A stretch of 64,000 bases of DNA, from contig CAWIIK010000006.1 of the NCBI GenBank assembly GCA_963836125.1, positions 31,975-95,974 of the forward strand, given 5' to 3'. The position numbers and the translations under genes were made by a program. The DNA comes from an uncultured Acidobacteriota bacterium. GTDB lineage: Bacteria; Acidobacteriota; Terriglobia; Acidiferrales; UBA7541. Below, piece after piece: positions 1 through 9,974 of the stretch. The notes beneath the pieces are model-generated. The model was not told the origin of the DNA and searched no databases. It worked only from the letters and a program-made list of their open reading frames with translations. Each line of letters starts with the position of its first letter. Position 1 is the first letter of the stretch.

Positions 1-1207
1 CCGTGACAGTGCTGTCCTCAGGTTTGTAACCGAGACTCACGTGGTACGGCTCCCAGGGGCTCCTGGCCGTGTCCTCCGCAAACGTGAAGAACGTGTACGA
101 CTCCAGCCTTCCGGTGAGCGCCATGTCATTCACCTGTGGCCAGGTCTGGCCGATGTTGAGCAGAGATAGCCGAAGCGCCCGGCCCACCGTGCTATTCGCT
201 CGCCACCCGTGACCGAGCATGCCGATGCCGGAGTTAAAGCCAAGCTCCTGAGCGATCGGGCCGTCGACAACGACAACAGGCGTGAACGAGCCGGTCGAAG
301 CCTGCACGTGCGTCAAGTCATAGTGCCTATCGGTGAAGCCCTCCATCGCTGCCAGAATCACCGGGAAATACTCCGGCTTGGCGCCGGCCATCACCGCGTT
401 GACCGCTATCTTTTCGACGGTTGCGGTGCCATTTTTCGGCGCCGCCTGCCCAACTACATCTTTCGGCGAACGCGTAGTCCCCGCCAGCATCCCCTTCACC
501 AGCTCGGGCGTCGGCGGAACGGCAGGCAGACCGTCGATCCAGCGGTTGGCGAGGAACAGCTCATTCGTCTTCTCGAACGCGTCGAGGAAATCCTTGCCGG
601 TCACTTGAATGTTGCGATCCTCCCGCTCGATCTGTATGGGCGAGGGCTTCGCCTCCTCCGGGGTCAACGGGCGGGTGAGCGCGTCGATCAGGGAGTCGAA
701 ACACGCGCTGGCAAGGGGTTGCAACTCTTCTTTGCTGGCACGCGCGCGATAGTATTGGTCGGCCGGGAGAGGCAGGACCCGGATTCCGGGCATGCCGCGA
801 TCCTTCGCTGCCGATTCTGCGTCCCCGAGAAATTCGCTGGTGATGAAATAAACGCCGGGCATTCCTGACTTTTCAATTTCAATCGCGTCGTGGGAACCCC
901 ACCACGTGCAGCTCCCTCAATCGCCGACACCGAAAACAAAAAGGTCGCCCTGCTGCTTCACGGTCGGATACCACTTGGGCACGTTCGTGATCGTCTGCGC
1001 CGCCGGCTTCGCGTACATCACGACCGTTGCCTTCGGATACTTCTCTTTCAGCATGTCTGCGAGTACTTCGAGAAACTCGTTCGCGCCGAATTTGCCATTG
1101 TCGACCAGCACGAGTTTCCTTGCCGACAGGTCGGAAACGCGGGGGCTGATGCCCCGTGTGGCCGGCGGAGGAATTTCGCCGCGCGGGTTCATGACCTCAA
1201 GTTGCAT
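1..1207 (-). CDS. UxxC (UGSC-type) selenoprotein fused to a large C-terminal domain, paralog 1. Sec codon TGA at 917-919. The 3' end runs off the window.
   Basis: Listed ORF 917..1222(-) ends ...LFVFGVGD at a TGA. The same frame stays open to position 1 and reads U-GSCTWWGSHDAIEIEKSGMPGVYF...IDGLPAVPPT...VMAGAKPEYFPVILAAM...WEPYHVSLGYKPEDSTVT, colinear with paralogs 2-4. AAGGAGG lies 5 nt before the second ATG (1207), so that start is preferred over 1222. The downstream part is absent from the ORF track because it has no stop inside the window. Confidence 0.75.
889..916 (-). promoter_or_regulatory. Candidate SECIS-like hairpin just 3' of the TGA of paralog 1
   Basis: The minus-strand RNA after UGA is GGGAGCUGCACGUGGUGGGGUUCCCACG. 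Two foldings are possible: GGGAGCU/GGUUCCC (7 bp with two G-U pairs) or CGUGG/CCACG (5 bp). Both leave a G/U-rich loop. Folded by eye only. Confidence 0.4.
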
Positions 1208-1324
1208 CTGTGCCTCCTTCATGAAGCTTTCGCGTGGCCAAGTTTACCAAACGCGGCGTGCGCCACTGAGCTCGCCTTACGCCGCCGACTTGGCTCCAAC
1301 CTAGCCTATTCTAATGACCGAGTG

Positions 1325-1338
1325 GTTGTCAAAACAAC
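1325..1338 (-). promoter_or_regulatory. Operator-like 14-mer GTTGTTTTGACAAC (minus-strand reading) containing a TTGACA -35 hexamer that faces paralog 1
   Basis: The plus strand reads GTTGTCAAAACAAC, identical to 7045..7058. It is one of four copies of GTTGTYTTGACAAC in the window. No good -10 element at 17 nt was found for this copy. Confidence 0.5.
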
Positions 1339-1377
1339 CATCTGCTGCACCCTCGCTCCCACCGGCACCTTACTCAT

Positions 1378-1412
1378 GTTGTCTTGACAACTACAGTGCA
1401 GTCTGTTGTACT
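1378..1412 (+). promoter_or_regulatory. Operator-like palindrome GTTGTCTTGACAAC overlapping a candidate sigma70-type promoter for paralog 2
   Basis: The arms GTTGTC/GACAAC are perfect inverted repeats (1378..1391). TTGACA at 1384..1389 is followed by a 17-nt spacer and TGTACT at 1407..1412. The ATG at 1477 is preceded by AGGAG. Confidence 0.5.
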
Positions 1413-1476
1413 TACCGTCGTTTGACAAGAGTTTGGCGAAGCGCTCAAGCTCGGTGAATCTCGCAGGAGTCACGTC

Positions 1477-3246
1477 ATGGCCACGCTGTTGCGTTCGGCG
1501 GTATTAAATCCGGAGGCGTACCGAACCGTCAGAGCCGCCGCCGGGGACGCACCCGGTAAGCCGCCATCATTCGCTTCCCTCGCTCCGCGCCTGGACAACC
1601 TCACGGGCAAGACGATCTACCTCGTCGACACCGGATTTGGAGGAAGCGGCAAATTCCTGGACCAGGCGCAGGCATGGTTTGCCGAGAACATGCCATCGGT
1701 CAAGACCGTGCGCCGGCGGAAGACGGGCAACATCTTTCGCGACGATACAAAGGATCTCTGGGCCGAAATCAAGGAAAACGGCCAAGCCGCGATCTTAGGC
1801 GTCGCGGGTTGACCCGGCTGCGCAGCGGCGGTCGCCGCTTGCTCCCGCACGCTCGAGCAGGAATACGGAATCCCGACAGCGCCCGTCTCGACTTTTGAGT
1901 TTGCTAACGTCGTGGCCGACGATCGCCGCTTTCACGGCGTTCCCCTGCGCTTCATTTACACCCCGCATCCGGTCGTAGGCATGCCTCCTTCCGTTCTTCG
2001 CGGCTATATCGAAGGGAACGATCCGGCAACGCAACAAACCGTCATCGATGAAGTGATCGGGGCCCTCACAAAACCAGTCAGCGAAGACGAATTCACCGGG
2101 GACTTCGCGCCCGTGTCGCGGACGGGCGTCAGGCAAACCGTCCTTGAGCCGGACACGGACGACAACCTGCAGCGGCTTTTTTATGAACGAGGCTGGACCG
2201 ACGGGCTGCCCATCATCCTTCCCACGGAAGAGCGCGTCGCGGAAATGCTTGCGGGCACAAACCGGGCACCGGATGAGGTCGTCACGGAGATCTTCCTGCA
2301 CGACACCCAGGAATACTTGAAGTTCACCGTCGAAATGGTGGCCATCATAGGCGTCATGGCGGGAGCGCGGCCCGAGCACTTGCCCGTCCTTCTGGCCGTT
2401 GCCTCGACCGGGCATCCGTCGATCCCCGGCTCGACGACGCCATTTGCTTGCATGCTCCTCGTCAACGGCCCGATCCGCCATGAGATCGAGATGAATTCTG
2501 GGATTGGAGCTTTCAGTCCTCGCACCCTGGCGAATTCCGTAATCGGGCGCGCATGGACACTCCTGACAATCAACTGGGGTTACATGCGGCTCAGGAAGCA
2601 GTTCTGGACATCGCAAGGGAATCCCATCGGCTACAACAATATGTGTGTCGCAGAAAACGAGGAAAGAAGCGCCTGGGAACCCTTTCACGTGCAGAAAAAG
2701 TTTCGCCCGGAAGAGAGTGTCGTCAGCCTATTTCGCGGGTGGAGTTTCGTCAACAATGTCGTCGGATCGTCTCACCGGTCGGTAGGCAACGACATGTTCC
2801 TGCAGCTGGGAGCTCTGCCGGGCCTGTTTTCGGCAGCGACATTGATACTGGATCCGCTCGTCGCGCGGCACCTCAAGGAAAACGACGGCTTCCAGACCAA
2901 GCTGGATTTCTGCCGCTGGATTTCAGAAAATTTCACAATGCCTGCCGGACAATTCTGGGGCACGGATTTGATTCACATGATGATGGCCCCTCTCGCGGAT
3001 CAGGGTGTTGAACCATATGCGTCGTGGAAGAAGCTCCCCGAGGACACGCTGATCAGGCCGTACGACAAGCCCCCAAACATCAATATCGTCGTCGTGGGTG
3101 GCGAAACAAGTCCCATGTGGAAAGTCTCGGATTTCGCTTACGCCGTGAGCGCTTCGGTGGACAAGTGGCGCGCGAAGCCCGCCGCCGACGGCTGTACCGA
3201 TGGAAGCTGCGGCCTTCCCGATGAGCCGAGCAACGGAACCAGCTGA
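1477..3246 (+). CDS. UxxC selenoprotein fused to a large C-terminal domain, paralog 2. Sec codon TGA at 1810-1812, predicted residue 112 of 589.
   Basis: ORFs 1477..1812 and 1912..3246 are in the same frame (offset 435 nt) with a single TGA between them. The reading is ...AAILGVAG-U-PGCAAAVAACSRTLEQEYGIPTAPVSTFEFANVV-ADDRRFHGVPLRF... The segment between the TGA and the next start codon is conserved with paralog 4. Confidence 0.8.
1822..1842 (+). promoter_or_regulatory. Candidate SECIS-like hairpin 3' of the TGA of paralog 2
   Basis: GCAGCGGC-GGUC-GCCGCUUGC forms a stem of 6 contiguous pairs with a GGUC apical loop, starting 10 nt after the UGA. From memory, the E. coli fdhF SECIS also has a GGUC-containing apical loop. 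Confidence 0.5.
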
Positions 3247-3294
3247 CACCCGGAGACCCGTTCACAGACGAGACAGGAATCGAGGAGGCGGATC

Positions 3295-5088
3295 ATGGAT
3301 CGAAGAAAAATGTTGGCGTTGTTGGGAGCCGGCCCGGCTCTCGTGGCCGGTCGCTCGTCTTTTGCCCGGACCGCCGCGACAACAACCCCGCCCACTGCGC
3401 CGGGATCCGCGAGCTGTAGCGCGGACAACAGCGCGGTCACCGTCCTGAACCCTGCCATCGCCACCCGGCTTGCGGATCGCGTGCCTCTTGCGCCCCGCCT
3501 GGATTCCTTGGACGGCAAAACGATTTACCTTGTGGACTTCGACTGGGGAGGCATGGGGCAGAACGACACCATTCAACAGGAAATGCAAGCATGGTTTGCC
3601 CAGCATATGCCCGGCGTAAAAACGATCATCAAGGTCAAGGGCGGCAACTTTGTTACCGACGATCCCGGGCTGTGGAAGGAGATCGCCGCGAACCATGGCG
3701 ACGGAGTCATTATCGGCGTAGCTGGTTGACACGGCTGCGTCGGGGCCGTGAGCCTCGAAGCTGGAGAAATCGAGCGGAAATACGGCATTCCCACCGTTGC
3801 CGTCGCCGGTAGGAATGTCGTGTCGTTCGGCATTCACGCGAATTTCAAATACAACACCGGTATGCCTCTTCGGTTTGTCGGCTTCCCGTTCCCCTTTTCG
3901 GGCCAGCCGCAGTCGGTGATCCGGCAATACATCGAGGGGAAAGACAGCATAAGTGGCAAGCCTCTGATGCAAGCGATCGTGGATGGTCTCACGAAGCCGC
4001 TCACCGCGAATGAGGAATTGTCGGGCACCGCTCCTGATGCTCCGCCCCCGGAACCAAGACTGCTCGCCGCCGATACGCGGGACAATCTGCAGCAGCTGTT
4101 CCGTGACAAAGGATGGACGGACTACAACCCGGTGATCCTACCGACGCCCGAAAAAGTCGCCGCGATGCTCAAGGGCACCAGTCATTCGCCGGATGAGATC
4201 GTCAAAAGCGCCGCAGGAACCTTTGGGTCGCGCCGCCCATTTACAGTCGAGAAGGTGGCTACGATTGCGGTAATGGCGGGCGCCAAGCCTGAGTATTTGC
4301 CCGTGATCCTCGCCCTATCCACCAAGGTGCCGTATCAGGATTCTACGACTTCCATAGCGAACATGGTGGTGGTGAGCGGGCCAATACGCAAGAAGATTGG
4401 GATGAATTCGGGTCTTGGCGCCTTGGGTCCGGACAATGAAGCAAATGCCGTCATTGGCCGGGCCATGACGCTCATTCACAAGGTGATCCAGGGATACGTG
4501 GAGGGCGTGACCGGCTTTGCTTCGCTGAGCAACCCGCTGCGATACGACAATCTTTGCTTCGCCGAAGACGAGGAATCTCTCCCGGAAGGCTGGCTGCCTC
4601 TTCACGTGCAACTGGGCCACAAGCCGACCGATAGCGTCGTAACCATCTTCACCGGCTGGAATTTCATTAATAGCTCAGGCTGGGTCGAACAGCACTACGC
4701 CCCTCAATTCCTGATGCGCGACTACATGTCGTCGCTGTCCGGCATGAGCGCCACACTGATCATGGATCCCACGGTCGCGGAGCTGCTCAGTGGCGTGCAG
4801 GGCTTCAAGACAAAGGCAGATCTCGGCGCTTGGCTGTCGCAGAACGTCGAAAAAACCGCCGAATCCTACTGGGGCAATGCAATCGTGTCGAGCATGCTCG
4901 CGCCGCTGGCCCGCCAGGGTCTCAAGCCGTACGCAGACTGGTTGGATCTTCCTGGCAAGAGCTTAATCAAGCCGTTCGCCAACCCGAATGGTATCCGTGC
5001 GATCGTGGCCGGAGGGAAAACGGCGAGCGTTTGGTTCGCAACCGATTTCATGCCCGACAGAGGCACGTGGATCGACGAGTGGACCTGA
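3295..5088 (+). CDS. UxxC selenoprotein fused to a large C-terminal domain, paralog 3, with a Tat-like signal peptide. Sec codon TGA at 3727-3729, predicted residue 145 of 597.
   Basis: ORFs 3295..3729 and 3748..5088 are in the same frame (offset 453 nt). The reading is ...GVIIGVAG-U-HGCVGAVSLEAGEIERKYGIPTVAVAG... The N-terminus is MDRRKMLALLGAGPALVAGRSSFA. GAGGAGG precedes the ATG. Confidence 0.8.
3730..3750 (+). promoter_or_regulatory. Candidate SECIS-like hairpin 3' of the TGA of paralog 3
   Basis: CACGGC-UGCGUCGGG-GCCGUG forms a 6-bp perfect stem that begins directly after the UGA. Confidence 0.45.
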
Positions 5089-5132
5089 CGCGAGGCCAGA
5101 TCGTCGCTCGCCTTCCACCACGGCGCAATCTC

Positions 5133-6989
5133 TTAGTTCGAAACCGTTGCTTTTTGTGCCGGCGCGAACTCCGGTTCGGCGCTCGGCGCGGCTTCCGGGA
5201 TGCCGCAGGTGCCATCTTTGCAGGTCAGCGGCACTGGCATCCGAAGCGGTCGCGCGTCCCGGCGAATTCCGCACTTCGGCCGCCACGTATCAATCGAAAC
5301 GCTTCGGGTATATGTGAAATCCGTGGTGATCCACATCGGGTTCGTCTCGCCGCCGACAACTAAAATATTGAGGTCGTCGGGCGAGCGGCGTGGAGTGATC
5401 GGCTCGTCCTTGGGAAGCTTGGACCAGGAGGCAAACGGCTCCATCCCTTGTTCGGCCAGTCGCGCGGCAAAGCCCGATTGCATCTGGCCTTCCCAGAAAT
5501 GCCCGGCAGGAACTTTTGAATTTTTGACGATCCATCGGCAGGCATCCTGCTTGGTCTTGAAACCTTCCGTTCGCAGGTTCTTGGCCACTAGCGGATCCAC
5601 GACAAATGTAATGCTGGTCCCCATCGACCCAAACGTGGCGATGACGTGAGCCATCTCCTTCGCCGGACCGAGCCCAAAGTTAAGCAGATTCCATCCGCGG
5701 AACAGGCTCACCACACTTTCGTCCGGGCGGAAGCCTTTCTGCACATGGAACGGCTCGAAGGCGCTCAACTCCTCGTTCTCGCCGAAGCACATGTTGTTGT
5801 AATTCAAGTTGTGGCCAAACGTCGCCATGAAGTTTTCGCCCGCACGCGCGTCCCCGAAGTTGATGCTCATCAGCGTCCAAGCCCTGCCGATCACCGAATT
5901 CGCGAGATTGAATGGACTGAGTGCAGCCGTGCCGCAATTCATGCCGATCTCATTGCGCATGGGCCCGTTCACAACCATCATGCGGCCCCACGAGGTTGTC
6001 GAGCTCGGCATCGACGGTTCCTGCGAGGCGGCAAGCGCGAGGATCACCGGAAAGTGTTCCGGCCGCGCTCCCGCCATCACGGCGATCGCGGCCACTTTTT
6101 CGATGGTGTACTCCGTCTTTTCCTGATGCGTGGTAATCAACATCCGTCCGACGATCTCGTCGCGATCGTGATCCGTTCCGGTCAGCATTTCGGCCACGCG
6201 TTCCTCCGTGGGAAGCACGATCGGCAAACCGTCCGTCCATCCGTTTTCGACGAATTGGCGATAGAGATTTTCAGCGCGGTCGGCCGAAAGCAAGCGCGGT
6301 CGCCGCGGCTTCCGAGCAATCGTGGGATGCTTCTCTGTTTCGGTCAGCGGCTGCGTGAGCGCCTCGATCACTTCCTGCAGCAAAGGCTGTGACGTGATGG
6401 GATCGCTTCCCTCAACGTACCGTCGCAGCACGTCTCGCGGCATCCCCATCACCGGATACGGAGAGAACCCAAAGCGCAAAGGTGTCCCGCGAGCCCGCGC
6501 ATCGCGTTCCACGAAATCGGCAAATCGGGCGGTCACGAGGGGCGCTGTGGGAATCCCATATTCGTCTTCGAGAGTTCTCGAATAATCGGCGACACTCGCC
6601 GAGCAGGCCTCTCAACCACCCACACCCAAAATGACCGCGTCGCCGCCGCCCGATTTAATTTCGGCCCAGAGTTCGGGGTCGTCGGTGAACATCGTGCCTT
6701 TTTTATGCCGCAGCACCGTCTTCACGCTCGGCATGTTACGGCAAAACCAGTCCTGCACTTCCCGCATGAACTCGATGCTGCCCGCAAATCCCGTCTCGAC
6801 TAGATAGAGAGTCTTGCCTTCCAAAGTGCCAAGGCGCGGCGCCAGGGACATGCTTTTGAGATCGCCGCTCGGTTGGGCAACGGGGTCTAAAATGTCCCCG
6901 GGCTTCGACTGTGCGTCAAGACGGCGCCCAAAGATGCCGGAAGGCTGCCCGTGCGGATCCAACACCGTCAATTTGCCGCTCTGCTCCAT
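5133..6989 (-). CDS. UxxC selenoprotein fused to a large C-terminal domain, paralog 4. Sec codon TGA at 6612-6614, predicted residue 126 of 618.
   Basis: ORFs 6612..6989(-) and 5133..6536(-) are in the same frame (offset 453 nt). The reading is ...AVILGVGG-U-EACSASVADYSRTLEDEYGIPTAPLVTARFADF... GAGGAGG precedes the ATG. Confidence 0.8.
6587..6601 (-). promoter_or_regulatory. Candidate SECIS-like hairpin 3' of the TGA of paralog 4
   Basis: The minus-strand RNA CGGCGA-GUG-UCGCCG forms a 6-bp perfect stem starting 10 nt after the UGA. It could breathe to 5 bp with an AGUGU loop. Confidence 0.45.
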
Positions 6990-7023
6990 ATGAGTCCTCC
7001 TCTATCTAGCCGCGTCGCGCATA

Positions 7024-7058
7024 AGTTTAATCGTTCTTCATTTAGTTGTCAAAACAAC
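7024..7058 (-). promoter_or_regulatory. Operator-like 14-mer GTTGTTTTGACAAC overlapping a candidate promoter for paralog 4
   Basis: On the minus strand, TTGACA (7052..7047) is followed by a 17-nt spacer and TAAACT (7029..7024). This lies about 30 nt upstream of the RBS and ATG at 6989. The 14-mer at 7045..7058 is identical to 1325..1338. Confidence 0.55.
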
Positions 7059-7163
7059 CTTCTGCCATTCGACCCGGGGACGCGTGCGCGAAGTCCCTGG
7101 CGACTTAGTCAGGCAGCGAGCGTTTCGCATCTGCGTTATGGTTCCGCGTGCAATCAGGAACGT

Positions 7164-7739
7164 CTAACGGCGGCGGGCGGTACGATGCTTCTGTTGGATC
7201 GCAAGCTGAAACATTTCTTCCGCTCGGGCAGAAAGCAAGTCGAGTACTCGTTCCACGTCGCGAGCCCGTTGTCCCTGCAACAACTGGCGCTGATACTCCT
7301 CCGCGACTGGCGCGATCTTGCGCAAGAGCGCCTCACCCTTCTTCGTCAATGAGAGTAACGAAGCTCGGCTATCGGATGGATGCGACGTCCTCTGGATCAA
7401 TTTGCGGCGCAGCAAGCCCCTCAGCGAGCGGCTGATCCAGGCTTTGTCGACGTGCGTTCTGCGGCTCACTTCATTCACTGAGATGGGCTGATAGGCGCCC
7501 AGCATCACCAGGATCCGCAAATCCGTCGGCTTCACGCCGTAGCGATCTTTGAACGTGAGCGTGCCGATGCGAAGAATCAGTTCCGAGAGACGGACAATGC
7601 GCACGGAAACCAGCCGGATGAGCGTGTCGATATGGGGAGCGTGTTCCTGCCGGTGTCTCGGCTTCAACGGACTCGTTCGCCCGCTTCGGCCAGCTTCAAG
7701 GACCTTGGGATTGGCGGTCTGCGGTTCGCCAACGCTCAT
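7164..7739 (-). CDS. MarR-family transcriptional regulator
   Basis: The winged-helix core reads ...KPTDLRILVMLGAYQPISVNEVSRRTHVDKAWISRSLRGLLRRKLIQRTSHPSDSRASLLSLTKKGEAL... The start is taken at the internal ATG (MSVGEPQ), because the upstream part of the listed ORF is not protein-like. The predicted protein contains no cysteine. Confidence 0.85.
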   Translation of the reverse strand: MSVGEPQTANPKVLEAGRSGRTSPLKPRHRQEHAPHIDTLIRLVSVRIVRLSELILRIGTLTFKDRYGVKPTDLRILVMLGAYQPISVNEVSRRTHVDKAWISRSLRGLLRRKLIQRTSHPSDSRASLLSLTKKGEALLRKIAPVAEEYQRQLLQGQRARDVERVLDLLSARAEEMFQLAIQQKHRTARRR

Positions 7740-7776
7740 CGATGTTTCTCTCCCGAATGCGTCGATGCGAGCATAT

Positions 7777-7811
7777 GGTGTCTTGACAACAATAAGGTAC
7801 ACGAGTATATA
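7777..7811 (+). promoter_or_regulatory. Operator-like 14-mer GGTGTCTTGACAAC overlapping a near-consensus promoter for the PQQ dehydrogenase gene. It also lies in the marR upstream region.
   Basis: TTGACA at 7783..7788 is followed by a 17-nt spacer and TATATA at 7806..7811. The site has one mismatch to the palindrome at 1378..1391. It sits 38-51 nt upstream of the divergent marR ATG at 7739. Confidence 0.6.
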
Positions 7812-7889
7812 GCAGATCGGCTCGAGAATGCACGTCCTGAGAGAAGATTTCATGCGAAGAGCTGACCGCGCTATCGGAAAGAAGGAGTG

Positions 7890-9974
7890 ATGAATAGACG
7901 GCAAATATCGGCGACTGAGTTGAGGGCTCCAGCCCGAGGAAATGGGTCAACGAAGCGCATTTTCGCCTTCGTCCTGACCATCGTTGCGGCCGCAAGCATT
8001 ACTCTTGCCGCAGAGTCCGGCACCAACGAGTGGTCCACCGTGAACGGCACCGGCAACATGCGCTATTCCTCCCTCGCGCAGATCAACGCCGGGAACGTGG
8101 CGAAGATGGGAGCGGCGTGGGTGGTGGACGGGATCGAGCCGATGCCTTCAAATCGCGCCACGCCGGTAATCGACGCCGGTTTGATGTTCTTGACAGCGCC
8201 GCCTTACGTGTACGCGGTGGACATCAACACCGGGAAGATCGCCTGGAGCTATAAGGCTGACGCACCAACTGCGCACGGAGGCGTGGCGGTCGGCGATGGG
8301 CTTGTTTTCGTAGGTATTTGGAACCCCGCCAGAACGACCCTGATCGCGCTACGAGAGAAAACGGGGGAGCTTGCGTGGAAATCTTCTCTGGTGCCCTCGT
8401 CCGGCGAACCAACCGGCGGCGCTTCGGGTGCCCCCTTGTTCGCCGACGGAGTGGTATCGATCGGCACAAACGGGGATTACGGATATCGGGGCCAGATCGT
8501 AGCCTTTGATGCCAAGACCGGGAAGGAAGCCTGGCGGTTTTACGTGGTGCCGTCGCCGGGAGAGCCGGGGTCCAACACGTGGCCGAAGAACAATGACGCG
8601 TGGTTGCACGGCGGCGGCGCCGTCTGGCTGGATGGCGTTTACGATCCGGAATTGGGCCTGGAGTTTTACGTCACGGGAAACGCTGTCCCGCAATATGGCG
8701 GCGAATACCGGCCAGGCGACAATCTGTACACCGATTGCGTGATCGCTCTCGACAACCAGACCGGCAAGCTGCGCTGGTATTATCAGGTGGTCCACCACGA
8801 CATATGGGAAGCCGATATCGCTGAAGCGCCGGTTCTCTTCGATGCCGAAGTGGACGGCCACGTCCGCAAGGCGATTGCAGCCATGCGCACGGACGGATAC
8901 CTGTTCATGTTCGATCGCGCGACCGGTAAGCCACTCGATCCCATGGAAGAGCGGAGCGTGCAGCAAGACGCGTATCAGAAAACAGCGAAAACACAGCCCT
9001 ATCCCGTCGGCGCCGAACCCGTCCTGCCAGACTGCGATTACTGGAAAACGCAGGCTATACCCGCGGGTTTTGATTTGGGCTGTTTCTTCACGCCCGCGGC
9101 TGTCGATAAGCCGAATCTGCTTGTCCCGGTTTACGGCATGCGCGCCACGCCGATGGCATTCGATCCGCAAACGCACTTTTTCTATGCCACCGGAAATGCC
9201 GGATTGCAGTGGTTCCGGCGAACGAAAGATCCGGACTTTTTCAGCCTGGGCTTCAGCAATCGTGTACCAGGGCTGGGCAAATTGGGCTACGGCGTACTGG
9301 CCGCGATCGATAGCCGCACCGACAAGATCGTCTGGAAAAACGAAATCCACGATGGGAGGCCCAGCGGCGCCCTGGCGACCGCAGGAGGCCTGGTGTTTCA
9401 GATGGCTGGAGACGGCAATCTCCAAGCGTACGACGCCAAGGGTGGCTCTCTGCTGTGGCAGTTTCAGACCGGCTCGCCCGTCGGCGGTCCGCCGATCGCT
9501 TTCGAGAATCGTGGCGAGGAATACATTGCTAGCGTCGTGGGTGGCGCCGTCTGGGCCTTCACGCTCGGTGGAACGATTCCACAGCGCTCGGCGCTGCCCA
9601 TTCACCCGCAAGAAGATTTTTCAGGGCCAATTACTGATACGGCGAGCATCGAAACTGCGACTCTCGTGCGAGATATGGGCCTCACGGGCGCGCATTTCAT
9701 CGCCGACGAGTACGAGTTCAATCCCTACCGCGCTCGAGTTACGGTCGGCACGCGCGTCTCCTGGCGGAACAATGGCGTGATGGATCACACCATTGTGGCC
9801 GTGGATGACTCTTGGACAACCGGTACGCTCGACCCTCTCGACATCGGCACGGTCGTCTTCGACAAACCGGGGACGTATGTCTACCACTGTAAGGAGTACC
9901 CGTGGGACTACGGCGAAATCATCGTCGTACCCGCGGAGGCACAGAGCCAACCGGCCGGCCAACAGGATCCATAG
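7890..9974 (+). CDS. PQQ-dependent dehydrogenase (methanol/ethanol family beta-propeller) with a C-terminal cupredoxin-like domain
   Basis: Family-typical stretches are NMRYSSLAQINAGNVAKMGAAWV, ATPVIDAGLMFLTAPPYVYAVDINTGKIAWSYK and DNLYTDCVIALDNQTGKLRWYYQVVHHDIWE. The C-terminal ~100 aa read ...RVSWRNNGVMDHTIVAV...GTYVYHCKEYPWDYGEIIVV. AAGGAG lies 5 nt before the ATG at 7890, while the listed ORF starts at the GTG at 7887. Confidence 0.85.
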   Translation: MNRRQISATELRAPARGNGSTKRIFAFVLTIVAAASITLAAESGTNEWSTVNGTGNMRYSSLAQINAGNVAKMGAAWVVDGIEPMPSNRATPVIDAGLMFLTAPPYVYAVDINTGKIAWSYKADAPTAHGGVAVGDGLVFVGIWNPARTTLIALREKTGELAWKSSLVPSSGEPTGGASGAPLFADGVVSIGTNGDYGYRGQIVAFDAKTGKEAWRFYVVPSPGEPGSNTWPKNNDAWLHGGGAVWLDGVYDPELGLEFYVTGNAVPQYGGEYRPGDNLYTDCVIALDNQTGKLRWYYQVVHHDIWEADIAEAPVLFDAEVDGHVRKAIAAMRTDGYLFMFDRATGKPLDPMEERSVQQDAYQKTAKTQPYPVGAEPVLPDCDYWKTQAIPAGFDLGCFFTPAAVDKPNLLVPVYGMRATPMAFDPQTHFFYATGNAGLQWFRRTKDPDFFSLGFSNRVPGLGKLGYGVLAAIDSRTDKIVWKNEIHDGRPSGALATAGGLVFQMAGDGNLQAYDAKGGSLLWQFQTGSPVGGPPIAFENRGEEYIASVVGGAVWAFTLGGTIPQRSALPIHPQEDFSGPITDTASIETATLVRDMGLTGAHFIADEYEFNPYRARVTVGTRVSWRNNGVMDHTIVAVDDSWTTGTLDPLDIGTVVFDKPGTYVYHCKEYPWDYGEIIVVPAEAQSQPAGQQDP

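What the first reader, a model, noticed from the sequence alone, without database searches (positions are those of the whole stretch)
889..6601. A hairpin lies 0-11 nt after each of the four in-frame TGAs (candidate bacterial SECIS elements)
Seen directly: every one of the four TGAs is followed by a stem-loop. Paralog 2 has GCAGCGGC-GGUC-GCCGCUUGC at 1822-1842. Paralog 3 has CACGGC-UGCGUCGGG-GCCGUG at 3730-3750. Paralog 4 has CGGCGA-GUG-UCGCCG at 6601-6587 on the minus strand. Paralog 1 has GGGAGCU...GGUUCCC or CGUGG...CCACG at 916-889 on the minus strand. All the loops contain G and U. Established knowledge: bacterial SECIS elements are hairpins inside the coding sequence immediately 3' of UGA, with unpaired G/U in the apical loop contacted by SelB. 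The GGUC loop of paralog 2 matches what I recall of the E. coli fdhF element. The primary sequences differ between paralogs while a hairpin is retained at the same place. That argues for selection on structure, although GC-rich DNA forms hairpins easily.
Basis: partly seen in the sequence, partly recalled or inferred. Interest (0 to 1): 0.6.

Follow-up and report, generated by a model that had tools for sequence, protein, structure and literature searches.

The report
Selenocysteine insertion hairpins in four paralogs
Each of the four in-frame TGA codons is a selenocysteine codon followed by a short RNA hairpin of the known bacterial SECIS type, in a known selenoprotein family (UGSC) that has expanded unusually in this soil Acidobacteriota genome.

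Summary
The hairpins are at the stated coordinates and are very probably bacterial SECIS elements. The genes are four paralogs with an N-terminal UGSC selenoprotein domain (PF24696) and an uncharacterised C-terminal domain. The genome has tRNA-Sec, SelA, SelB, SelD and a TGA-containing FdhA whose hairpin has an AGUU loop (G23 U24).

Plain folding energy is not significant against dinucleotide or codon-preserving shuffles. The support is comparative:
- 184 of 186 homologous loci from several phyla keep TGA.
- 91 distinct hairpin haplotypes all place a GpU-containing 3-5 nt loop 20-26 nt after the U of UGA, except one with a CUUGA loop.
- Stems covary, partly through paired amino-acid changes.
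- Synonymous variation collapses in codons +4 to +10.
- Terminal TGA stops of the same genes lack such hairpins, as do the two Cys-codon homologs.

P1 is best read as GUGGG-GUU-CCCAC (902-890, minus strand). P3 is best read as a hairpin with a CGUGA loop at 3740-3758. P2 (1822-1842) and P4 (6602-6586) stand, and the recalled GGUC loop of E. coli fdhF is correct.

This is a known mechanism in a known family. The 12-16-fold paralog expansion is the less ordinary part. Earlier scan notes concern this same window only.

The parts
1..1222 (-). Paralog 1 (A type). The gene runs off the window start; the full open frame is about 585 aa. It has a UGSC domain plus a C-terminal domain, with the motif G-D-U-G-S-C.
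917..919 (-). Sec codon (TGA) of paralog 1
   Evidence: TGA is kept in all 14 A-type homologs
886..906 (-). SECIS of paralog 1. The core is GUGGG-GUU-CCCAC at 902-890 (nt 18-30 from the U of UGA), with G23 U24 in the loop. An outer 3 bp extend it to 906-886.
   Evidence: E = -12.6 kcal/mol, empirical p 0.0027. Pairs 21-27 and 22-26 covary with standalone UGSC genes (GC to CG, GC to AU). Synonymous entropy is 0 in codons +4 to +10.
1477..3246 (+). Paralog 2 (589 aa, U112). It ends in a genuine TGA stop at 3244-3246 that has no SECIS-like hairpin.
1810..1812 (+). Sec codon (TGA) of paralog 2
   Evidence: TGA in all 60 P2-clade sequences
1822..1842 (+). SECIS of paralog 2: a 6+2 bp stem with a bulged U on the 3' side and a GGUC loop at 1830-1833 (nt 21-24)
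   Evidence: Covariation on 58 sequences: 89.3% paired against 76.8% in shuffles, and 59 double-changed cells against 17 (0 of 500 shuffles reach it). 40 distinct haplotypes fold alike.
3295..5088 (+). Paralog 3 (597 aa, U145), with an RR-containing N-terminal signal-like stretch. It ends in a genuine TGA stop at 5086-5088 that has no hairpin.
3727..3729 (+). Sec codon (TGA) of paralog 3
   Evidence: TGA in all 25 P3-clade sequences
3732..3763 (+). SECIS of paralog 3. The upper stem-loop is 3740-3758 (7 bp), with a CGUGA loop at 3747-3751 (G22 U23). The lower stem pairs 3732-3736 with 3759-3763.
   Evidence: E = -13.8, p 0.0021. Compensatory changes occur at pairs 15-31, 17-29 and 18-28. The proximal hairpin is broken in the most divergent member while the distal one is perfect there.
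5133..6989 (-). Paralog 4 (618 aa, U126), with a TAA stop
6612..6614 (-). Sec codon (TGA) of paralog 4
   Evidence: TGA in all 23 P4-clade sequences plus 6 further metagenome relatives
6586..6602 (-). SECIS of paralog 4: UCGGCGA-GUG-UCGCCGA, with the loop at 6595-6593 (G20 U21)
   Evidence: E = -9.8, p 0.009. Orthologues either keep it, change G18-C24 to U18-A24, or re-register to a hairpin with a GGUC loop at nt 21-24.

Best explanation
The four in-frame TGAs are selenocysteine codons of four paralogous selenoproteins, each a UGSC redox domain with a UxxC motif fused to an uncharacterised C-terminal domain of about 350 aa. Each TGA is followed, inside the reading frame, by a bacterial SECIS element. 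This is a 5-8 bp hairpin that starts 9-14 nt after the UGA. Its 3-5 nt apical loop exposes a GpU, with the G 20-23 nt from the U of UGA in this window and 20-25 nt across the family.

By analogy with E. coli and Moorella, the SelB-GTP-Sec-tRNA(Sec) complex binds this loop through its C-terminal winged-helix domains. That tethers it to a ribosome whose A site holds the UGA, so Sec is inserted instead of release-factor termination.

Shown here: the hairpins; their covariation and synonymous constraint; their absence at true TGA stops and in Cys-codon homologs; and the presence of selA, selB, selC and selD plus a second selenoprotein gene (fdhA) with the same kind of hairpin. Inferred: SelB binding and actual Sec insertion.
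For: Sec machinery and gene family
- tRNA-Sec is found by ARAGORN and by Rfam RF01852 (66 bits) and is the only UCA-anticodon tRNA. SelB scores 368 bits, SelA 556 bits and SelD 363 bits, all above their cut-offs.
- The UGSC domain scores above the Pfam threshold in all four paralogs.
- 184 of 186 unique homologous loci have TGA at the aligned site. They come from Acidobacteriota, Dehalococcoidales, Desulfobacterota-type MAGs, Bacillota, Chloroflexia and others.

Structure conservation
- P2 clade: 7 of 9 pairs show double changes, with 59 compensated cells against 17 in shuffles (0/500). Slid-register controls pair only 29-68% against 89%. Loop positions 1 and 4 covary (GC 46, AU 12, never mismatched).
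- Several compensations are non-synonymous. One example is Ala to Val on the 5' arm paired with Ala to Thr on the 3' arm.
- Synonymous codon entropy in codons +4 to +10 is 0.0-0.7 bits, against 0.75-1.46 bits outside, in all six clades.
- A SECIS-like hairpin with E <= -5 occurs in 98.9% of 178 Sec forms. The rate is 5.4% at in-gene background positions and 6.4% at 1340 TGA ends of long frames in this genome.
- 91 distinct nt 13-35 haplotypes fold by unconstrained MFE to a hairpin with the loop in the same place.

Controls
- The six terminal TGA stops of the paralogs score 0 to -0.8.
- The only B-type Cys-codon homolog (L157) differs from 36 invariant Sec forms by two synonymous changes, and both break stem pairs (E = -1.4). 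The other Cys form (L143) scores -3.1.
- This genome's FdhA has UGA followed by a 7 bp hairpin with an AGUU loop, G23 U24. E. coli fdhF has GGUC at nt 22-25.
- All four elements meet the published bSECIS constraints: loop 3-9 nt, stem 4-16 bp, G in the first two loop positions, spacing 16-37 nt, MFE <= -7.5 (PMC13188914).
- Independent soil-metagenome contigs show no variant at any of the four TGAs.
Against: - Plain MFE is no better than dinucleotide shuffles or codon-preserving recodings.
- For P2, 38% of synonymous recodings give an equally good SECIS-like hairpin. Its Ala-Ala-Ala-Val-Ala-Ala peptide nearly forces one.
- The geometric criterion (GU in the loop, G at 20-26) was chosen after inspection.
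- The homologs are related, so the counts overstate independence.
- Only two Cys-codon homologs were available for the contrast.
- No Rfam SECIS family matches.
- There is no RNA or proteomic evidence; no RNA run holds the locus.
- For P1 and P3, alternative proximal hairpins of similar energy exist, so the exact functional register is inferred.
Confidence: 0.9

Rival explanations
1. The hairpins are by-products of GC-rich coding sequence and of the conserved peptide after the active site. They have no recoding role.
For: Generic MFE is not better than shuffles or synonymous recodings. The P2 peptide alone yields a comparable hairpin in 38% of recodings.
Against: - Synonymous sites are frozen exactly over the stem, while the third loop nucleotide and the flanking codons vary.
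- Compensatory changes alter amino acids on both arms.
- The loop GpU is supplied by different codon positions in different clades.
- Hairpins are lost in the Cys forms and absent at terminal TGA stops.
Confidence: 0.04
2. The UGA is recoded by a SelB-type mechanism, but to cysteine (a selC*-like tRNA-Cys) or by an acidobacterial allo-tRNA suppressor, rather than to selenocysteine.
For: Such tRNAs are described in deltaproteobacteria and Acidobacteria (PMC5389517).
Against: The genome has SelA and SelD above their cut-offs. It has a single UCA-anticodon tRNA, which matches Rfam tRNA-Sec over its full length with a 6 bp D-stem. ARAGORN found no second opal suppressor.
Confidence: 0.03
3. The reader's proximal hairpins are the functional SECIS of paralogs 1 and 3, or act as an obligatory lower helix. 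These are P1 at nt 4-28 (916-892) and P3 at nt 4-24 (3730-3750).
For: Both are the MFE solution in some window sizes. Both are 96-97% paired across their clades.
Against: - There is no compensatory change in either; only one-sided or wobble changes occur.
- Their apical loops lie 6-11 nt after UGA, outside the 16-37 nt range of the bSECIS model. An A-site ribosome would cover them (established knowledge of the E. coli minimal SECIS; PMC8659212).
- The P1 proximal stem is disrupted in the 68%-identical A-type homolog and absent in standalone UGSC genes (59% paired).
- The P3 proximal stem is broken in the most divergent member, where the distal stem is perfect.
Confidence: 0.12
4. The TGAs are true stops. 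The genes would then be split, pseudogenised or mis-assembled.
For: Gene callers truncate these proteins. Most database entries are 416-474 aa fragments that start after the TGA.
Against: - TGA sits at one aligned codon in 184 loci from many assemblies and phyla, with conserved protein sequence on both sides.
- Four soil-metagenome contig sets (one study; two may be the source sample, two are other samples) show no variant at the TGAs.
- The site is the first residue of a UxxC redox motif in a family already known as a selenoprotein family (PMC2398784).
Confidence: 0.01

Closest known systems
E. coli fdhF SECIS (minimal 17-nt upper stem-loop, nt 15-31, with loop G23 U24)
   Same: It is a hairpin inside the ORF just 3' of the Sec UGA, with a GpU in a small apical loop about 22-24 nt from the U of UGA. 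P2 even has the same GGUC tetraloop, at nt 21-24 against 22-25 in fdhF. The spacer of 9-14 nt compares with 11 nt in E. coli.
   Different: No 5'-side bulged U17 equivalent is seen. P2 instead has a bulged U on the 3' side. Loops are 3-5 nt (GUU, GGUC, CGUGA, GUG). The G position shifts between 20 and 25 among paralog clades. There is no primary-sequence similarity in the stems.
bSECIS consensus model of bSECISearch (as summarised in PMC13188914)
   Same: All four elements meet the constraints on loop size, stem length, G in the first two loop positions followed by U or G, 16-19 nt spacing, and MFE <= -7.5. The model's N1-N2 loop base pair matches the covariation of loop positions 1 and 4 (GGUC and AGUU) in the P2 clade.
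   Different: P4 sits at the lower limit of the spacing (16 nt). bSECISearch itself was not run.
UGSC-containing selenoprotein family (NF041046 / PF24696; Zhang and Gladyshev GOS study, PMC2398784)
   Same: The N-terminal domain matches PF24696, the U is in a UxxC motif, and P1 has the literal UGSC. Sec forms far outnumber Cys forms (255 to 21 in GOS; 184 to 2 here). A 'UGSC/Unknown_1' fusion was already noted in GOS data.
   Different: All four score below the NF041046 equivalog cut-off (22-90 bits against 125). They are about 590-620 aa fusion proteins, not about 150-180 aa standalone proteins. There are 12-13 paralogs per genome. I could not check whether the fused domain equals GOS 'Unknown_1', because that figure is held only as an image.
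FdhA (FdnG-type formate dehydrogenase) SECIS of the same genome
   Same: It has the same architecture and the same GpU position: a 7 bp stem with an AGUU loop, G23 U24. The AGUU loop also occurs as a variant in the P2 clade.
   Different: It belongs to an unrelated protein family and has a different stem sequence.

Membership tests
bacterial SECIS (bSECIS consensus model, PMC13188914) | Stem-loop inside the ORF immediately downstream of an in-frame UGA that aligns with Cys or Sec in homologs | tested here: met
bacterial SECIS (bSECIS consensus model, PMC13188914) | Apical loop of 3-9 nt and upper stem of 4-16 bp | tested here: met
   P1 3 nt / 5 bp; P2 4 nt / 6(+2) bp; P3 5 nt / 7 bp; P4 3 nt / 7 bp
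bacterial SECIS (bSECIS consensus model, PMC13188914) | G in one of the first two loop positions, usually followed by G or U | tested here: met
   The loops are GUU, GGUC, CGUGA and GUG. Across 178 Sec forms the loops are GGUC 63, CGUGA 27, GUC 26, GUU 25, GUG 18 and AGUU 11.
bacterial SECIS (bSECIS consensus model, PMC13188914) | 16-37 nt between the UGA and the apical loop | tested here: met
P1 19, P2 17, P3 17 and P4 16 nt for the hairpins proposed here.
bacterial SECIS (bSECIS consensus model, PMC13188914) | Free energy <= -7.5 kcal/mol | tested here: met
   -12.6, -14.0, -13.8 and -9.8 kcal/mol
bacterial SECIS (bSECIS consensus model, PMC13188914) | Genome encodes selA, selB, selC (tRNA-Sec) and selD | tested here: met
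bacterial SECIS (bSECIS consensus model, PMC13188914) | Binds SelB and directs Sec insertion at the UGA | not testable with these tools
   Needs binding and reporter assays or proteomics
E. coli fdhF-type SECIS | Bulged U (U17) on the 5' arm of the upper stem, together with loop G23 U24 | tested here: not met
   No 5'-arm bulged U occurs in any of the four; P2 has a 3'-arm bulged U. A loop GpU is present in all.
UGSC family (seleno)protein | Match to Pfam PF24696 above the gathering score | tested here: met
   112.1, 61.8, 36.5 and 66.6 bits against 25
UGSC family (seleno)protein | Match to the NCBIfam equivalog NF041046 above its cut-off (125 bits) | tested here: not met
   90.4, 50.0, 21.8 and 44.2 bits. 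These are domain-level relatives, not equivalogs of the standalone protein.
UGSC family (seleno)protein | U-G-S-C active-site motif | tested here: inconclusive
   P1 has UGSC. P2 has UPGC, P3 UHGC and P4 UEAC, so the UxxC pattern is kept throughout.
Rfam SECIS families | Covariance-model match | tested here: inconclusive
   There is no match at E <= 10 in window 1-9000. Rfam's bacterial SECIS models are family-specific.

The most novel reading that the evidence does not exclude
The genes define an essentially Sec-obligate enzyme family (184 of 186 loci with TGA). A UGSC redox domain is fused to a domain of about 350 aa that has no relative among solved structures. The family has expanded to 12-16 copies per genome in part of one soil Acidobacteriota genus and lies next to a MarR-type regulator gene, with a shared palindrome between the genes. 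After duplication the SECIS diversified into at least six sequence classes within one genome. All of them keep only a GpU loop at +20 to +25. This would mean that this organism's SelB reads little more than loop GpU plus distance, and that SECIS pairing has driven paired amino-acid substitutions in the helix after the active site.
Probability: 0.35. Interest if true: 0.55.

Novelty: new member of a known kind. Interest (0 to 1): 0.35.

Why it matters
It turns four "split ORFs" into correctly read selenoprotein genes, and it does the same for 12-13 in this genome and hundreds in related MAGs. Public databases mostly list these as truncated hypothetical proteins.

The family offers a natural mutagenesis series: about 90 hairpin haplotypes around an invariant GpU. 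That series can define what an acidobacterial SelB recognises. It is also a clear example of an RNA structure shaping protein sequence.

The mechanism itself is textbook, so the value lies in annotation and comparison, not in concept.

Tried and rejected
- Rfam scan of window 1-9000 at E <= 10: no match.
- Generic MFE tests gave nothing significant: dinucleotide shuffles, in-gene sliding windows (1.5-16% for the four window genes, about 60% for the B-type paralogs) and codon-preserving recodings.
I therefore could not read the DNA of two database proteins that show Cys (P0054) or Arg (P0077) at the U position. A metagenome scan with P0054 returned only TGA-bearing relatives, not its own locus. 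P0054 may be a Sec protein written with C.
- No RNA holder is listed for the locus, so nothing can be said about expression.
- Fold searches: the whole protein and the C-terminal domain alone gave no Foldseek hit at E <= 0.001. VIA-align gave only generic flavodoxin/CheY-like matches for residues 41-205 (Z 8-10) and Z <= 5.6 for the C-terminal domain.
- The Atlas search found only unnamed hypothetical-protein clusters.
- The GOS supplement figure of 'Unknown_1' is held only as an image.
- I did not build a covariance model. It would mostly re-find homologous coding sequence and would not be an independent test.
Full report
WHAT IS THERE

The window (contig C6:31975-95974 of a 4.73 Mb, 12-contig genome) starts with four paralogous genes. 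Each is interrupted by one in-frame TGA at a homologous position:
- P1: minus strand, 1222 to beyond the window start, TGA at 919-917.
- P2: 1477-3246, TGA at 1810-1812.
- P3: 3295-5088, TGA at 3727-3729.
- P4: minus strand, 6989-5133, TGA at 6614-6612.

Read through, each gives a protein of about 590-620 aa with the motif G-x-U-x-x-C. The N-terminal 150-170 residues match Pfam PF24696 (UGSC family) at 36-112 bits against a threshold of 25. They match NCBIfam NF041046, 'UGSC family (seleno)protein', below its equivalog cut-off. The C-terminal part of about 400 residues matches nothing in Pfam or NCBIfam. Record titles of near-identical loci name the organism as an Acidobacteriota MAG ('Candidatus Acidiferrales' / 'Acidoferrum') from soil.

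THE SELENOCYSTEINE MACHINERY IS PRESENT

The genome has one tRNA with anticodon UCA. ARAGORN calls it tRNA-SeC, and Rfam tRNA-Sec (RF01852) matches it over its full length at 66 bits. It also has SelB (368 bits), SelA (556 bits) and SelD (363 bits), all above the curated cut-offs. An FdnG-type formate dehydrogenase gene also carries one in-frame TGA. That TGA is followed by a 7 bp hairpin with an AGUU loop in which G and U are nucleotides 23 and 24, counted from the U of UGA. TGA is also used as an ordinary stop; P1, P2 and P3 themselves end in TGA.

THE OBSERVATION

The recalled GGUC loop of E. coli fdhF is correct: in K-12 fdhF, nt 15-31 after the Sec140 UGA form the upper stem-loop, with GGUC at nt 22-25. 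In P2 the GGUC loop is at nt 21-24.

IS IT MORE THAN CHANCE?

By folding energy alone, no.
- Z-scores against dinucleotide shuffles of the 60 nt after each TGA are -1.9, +0.3, -1.3 and -1.0.
- Against 2000 synonymous recodings that keep the peptide, MFE z-scores are -1.4 to +1.2.
For P2, the Ala-Ala-Ala-Val-Ala-Ala peptide almost forces a hairpin: 38% of recodings are as good.

A SECIS-specific geometry does better. The criterion is a hairpin whose 3-8 nt loop contains GU, with the G at nt 20-26.
- The four elements score -12.6, -14.0, -13.8 and -9.8 kcal/mol.
- Their empirical p-values are 0.0027, 0.0021, 0.0021 and 0.0091 against 6740 other in-frame positions of the 12 paralogs.
- They fall in the top 1.4-9% of recodings, except for P2.
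- I set this criterion after seeing the sequences, guided by the E. coli G23/U24 rule (PMC8659212). It is supportive, not decisive.

COMPARATIVE EVIDENCE (THE DECISIVE PART)

TGA conservation and paralog expansion
- The genome holds 12-13 paralogs, each with one TGA at the same site.
- 7 of 24 other species of the genus hold 8-16 matches (whole or fragmentary copies) each; the other 17 have none.
- Homologs occur in MAGs labelled Dehalococcoidales, Desulfatiglandales, Desulfobacteraceae, Bacillota, Chloroflexia and others.
- Of 186 unique loci aligned at the U position, 184 have TGA, one has TGC and one has TGT.

Clade-specific hairpins
- The sequences fall into clades with different hairpin sequences. 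When nt 13-35 are folded alone, all 91 distinct haplotypes give a hairpin with the apical loop in the same place.
- The haplotype counts are 40 for P2-type, 14 for P4-type, 11 for P3-type, 11 for B, 7 for B', 3 for A and 5 for standalone UGSC. A GpU is in the loop in all but one.
- Loop types among 178 Sec forms are GGUC 63, CGUGA 27, GUC 26, GUU 25, GUG 18, AGUU 11 and a few others. The G lies at nt 20-25.

Covariation
It has 59 doubly changed cells against 17 (0 of 500 shuffles reach this). Slid registers pair only 29-68%.
- Compensation often changes the protein. GCG to GUG (Ala to Val) on the 5' arm goes with GCU to ACU (Ala to Thr) on the 3' arm. Desulfatiglandales-type genes use a wholly different GGAGG/CCUCC stem around the same loop.
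- Loop positions 1 and 4, both synonymous third positions, covary as G...C (46) or A...U (12) with no exception. This matches the N1-N2 pair of the published bSECIS model.

Synonymous constraint
- In all six clades, synonymous codon entropy drops to 0.0-0.7 bits in codons +4 to +10, from 0.75-1.46 bits elsewhere.
- In the B clade the stem codons are invariant in 36 sequences. The third loop nucleotide and the flanking codons vary freely.

Controls
- The six terminal TGA stops of the paralogs have no SECIS-like hairpin (0 to -0.8 kcal/mol).
- Of 1340 TGAs that end long open frames in the genome, 6.4% reach -5 kcal/mol, against 98.9% of the Sec TGAs.
- The only B-type homolog with a Cys codon (L157, in a genome whose other paralogs keep TGA) differs from the invariant Sec-form stem by two synonymous changes. 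Both break base pairs (E = -1.4). The other Cys form scores -3.1. With n = 2 this is suggestive only.
- Soil-metagenome contigs from other samples of the same study show no variant at any of the four TGAs.

RE-REGISTERING TWO OF THE FOUR HAIRPINS

P3
- It places its loop 6 nt after UGA, outside the 16-37 nt range.
- It is broken in the most divergent clade member.
- The overlapping distal hairpin (nt 14-32, 3740-3758, loop CGUGA with G22 U23, plus a lower stem 3732-3736/3759-3763) shows compensatory changes at three pairs. It is perfect in that divergent member. Position 17-29 is mismatched in about half of the sequences.

P1
The register GUGGG-GUU-CCCAC (nt 18-30, 902-890) puts G23 U24 in a triloop.
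- It is positionally homologous to the hairpin CGUGCA-GUN-UGCACG of standalone UGSC genes, with two compensated pairs between the two clades.
- It coincides with the block of frozen synonymous sites, while nt 4-9 vary.
- In E. coli, only the upper 17-nt stem-loop 11 nt from UGA is essential. This also argues against hairpins that start at nt 4.

With these registers, all four elements meet every computable constraint of the published bSECIS consensus.

THE PROTEINS AND THEIR CONTEXT

'UGSC-containing protein' is an established selenoprotein family with a UxxC motif. In the GOS data it counted 255 Sec forms against 21 Cys forms, and a 'UGSC/Unknown_1' fusion was noted there (PMC2398784). It is listed in the 2026 review under NF041046.

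- Most database entries for the present family are 416-474 aa fragments starting after the TGA and are named 'hypothetical protein'. A few are named 'UGSC family (seleno)protein'.
- In other Terriglobia families, a gene homologous to the C-terminal domain lies next to a standalone UGSC selenoprotein gene of about 180 aa. This links the two parts functionally.
- AlphaFold models are confident: pLDDT 80.5 for the whole protein and 87.2 (pTM 0.89) for the C-terminal domain.
- The UGSC domain resembles generic flavodoxin/CheY-like alpha/beta folds (Z 8-10). The C-terminal domain has no convincing solved relative (Z <= 5.6; Foldseek E >= 0.03).
- Next to the cluster lie a MarR-family regulator gene and a PQQ-dehydrogenase gene. 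A 14-bp palindrome occurs four times in the intergenic regions.

VERDICT

The hairpins are real and are, with about 90% confidence, functional bacterial SECIS elements of UGSC-type selenoprotein genes. Two hairpin registers are corrected.

This is a new set of members of a known kind of element in a known selenoprotein family. Three aspects are less ordinary:
- the near-absence of Cys forms;
- the 12-16-fold expansion in part of one genus;
- the diversity of SECIS stems around a fixed GpU.

Limits
- No RNA run holds the locus.
- There is no experimental evidence for SelB binding or Sec insertion.

Noticed in passing
whole genome G000 and same-genus genomes: The UGSC-fusion family has 12-13 TGA-containing paralogs in this genome and 8-16 matches (whole or fragmentary copies) in 7 of 24 other species of the genus, with none found in the other 17. 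It is a patchy, large single-family selenoprotein expansion.
   Followed up: partly
window 2149-3186 (C-terminal domain of P2); models m77f4e3a9630c and m51c33543a8c4: The C-terminal domain of about 350 aa gives a confident AlphaFold model (pLDDT 87, pTM 0.89) but has no convincing match among solved structures (best Z 5.6; Foldseek E >= 0.03). The Atlas neighbours are unnamed hypothetical proteins of 370-397 aa.
   Followed up: partly
loci L144-L151 (other Terriglobia families): A homolog of the C-terminal domain (open frame of about 500-570 aa, no TGA) lies next to a standalone UGSC selenoprotein gene of about 180 aa (motif A-D-U-G-S-C-T-T-C). This is the split form of the fusion seen in the window.
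   Followed up: partly
window 1325-1338, 1378-1391, 7045-7058, 7777-7790: The 14-bp palindrome GTTGTC-WWR-ACAAC occurs four times (0.05 expected by chance). The sites lie in the intergenic regions between P1 and P2, upstream of P4, and upstream of the MarR-family gene (7167-7904, minus strand). It is a likely operator of a MarR-controlled selenoprotein regulon.
   Followed up: partly
codon -1 before each Sec TGA (e.g. window 1807-1809, 3724-3726): The codon just upstream of the UGA shows zero synonymous variation in clades A, B, B' and P3. This may be a context effect on Sec decoding.
   Followed up: no
L157 (G183:C76:40455-41648): One B-type paralog has TGC (Cys) instead of TGA, in a genome whose other paralogs keep TGA. 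Two synonymous changes break its hairpin.
   Followed up: yes
proteins P0054 and P0077: Two database homologs show C (P0054) and R (P0077, G-R-D-G-C) at the U position.
   Followed up: partly
window 3295-3390: P3 alone starts with an RR-containing, hydrophobic, signal-like N-terminus followed by a Thr/Pro-rich stretch. It may be an exported paralog.
   Followed up: no
window 3190-3243 and 5133-5230 (C-termini of P2 and P4): P2 and P4 end with a C-x-D-G-x-C-G-(L/I)-P motif that P3 lacks.
   Followed up: no
window 887-922: In the Logan contigs of the source soil samples, assembly breaks at a 36-nt node of higher depth that covers the P1 TGA and its hairpin. This fits the stretch being identical between paralogs or strains.
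   Followed up: no
window 7887-9971: A PQQ-dependent dehydrogenase beta-propeller protein (PF01011, 256 bits) is encoded divergently from the MarR gene next to the selenoprotein cluster.
   Followed up: no
G000:C1:294248-297394 (minus strand): An FdnG-type formate dehydrogenase alpha subunit has one in-frame TGA and a hairpin with an AGUU loop (G23 U24). It is a second selenoprotein family in this genome.
   Followed up: yes
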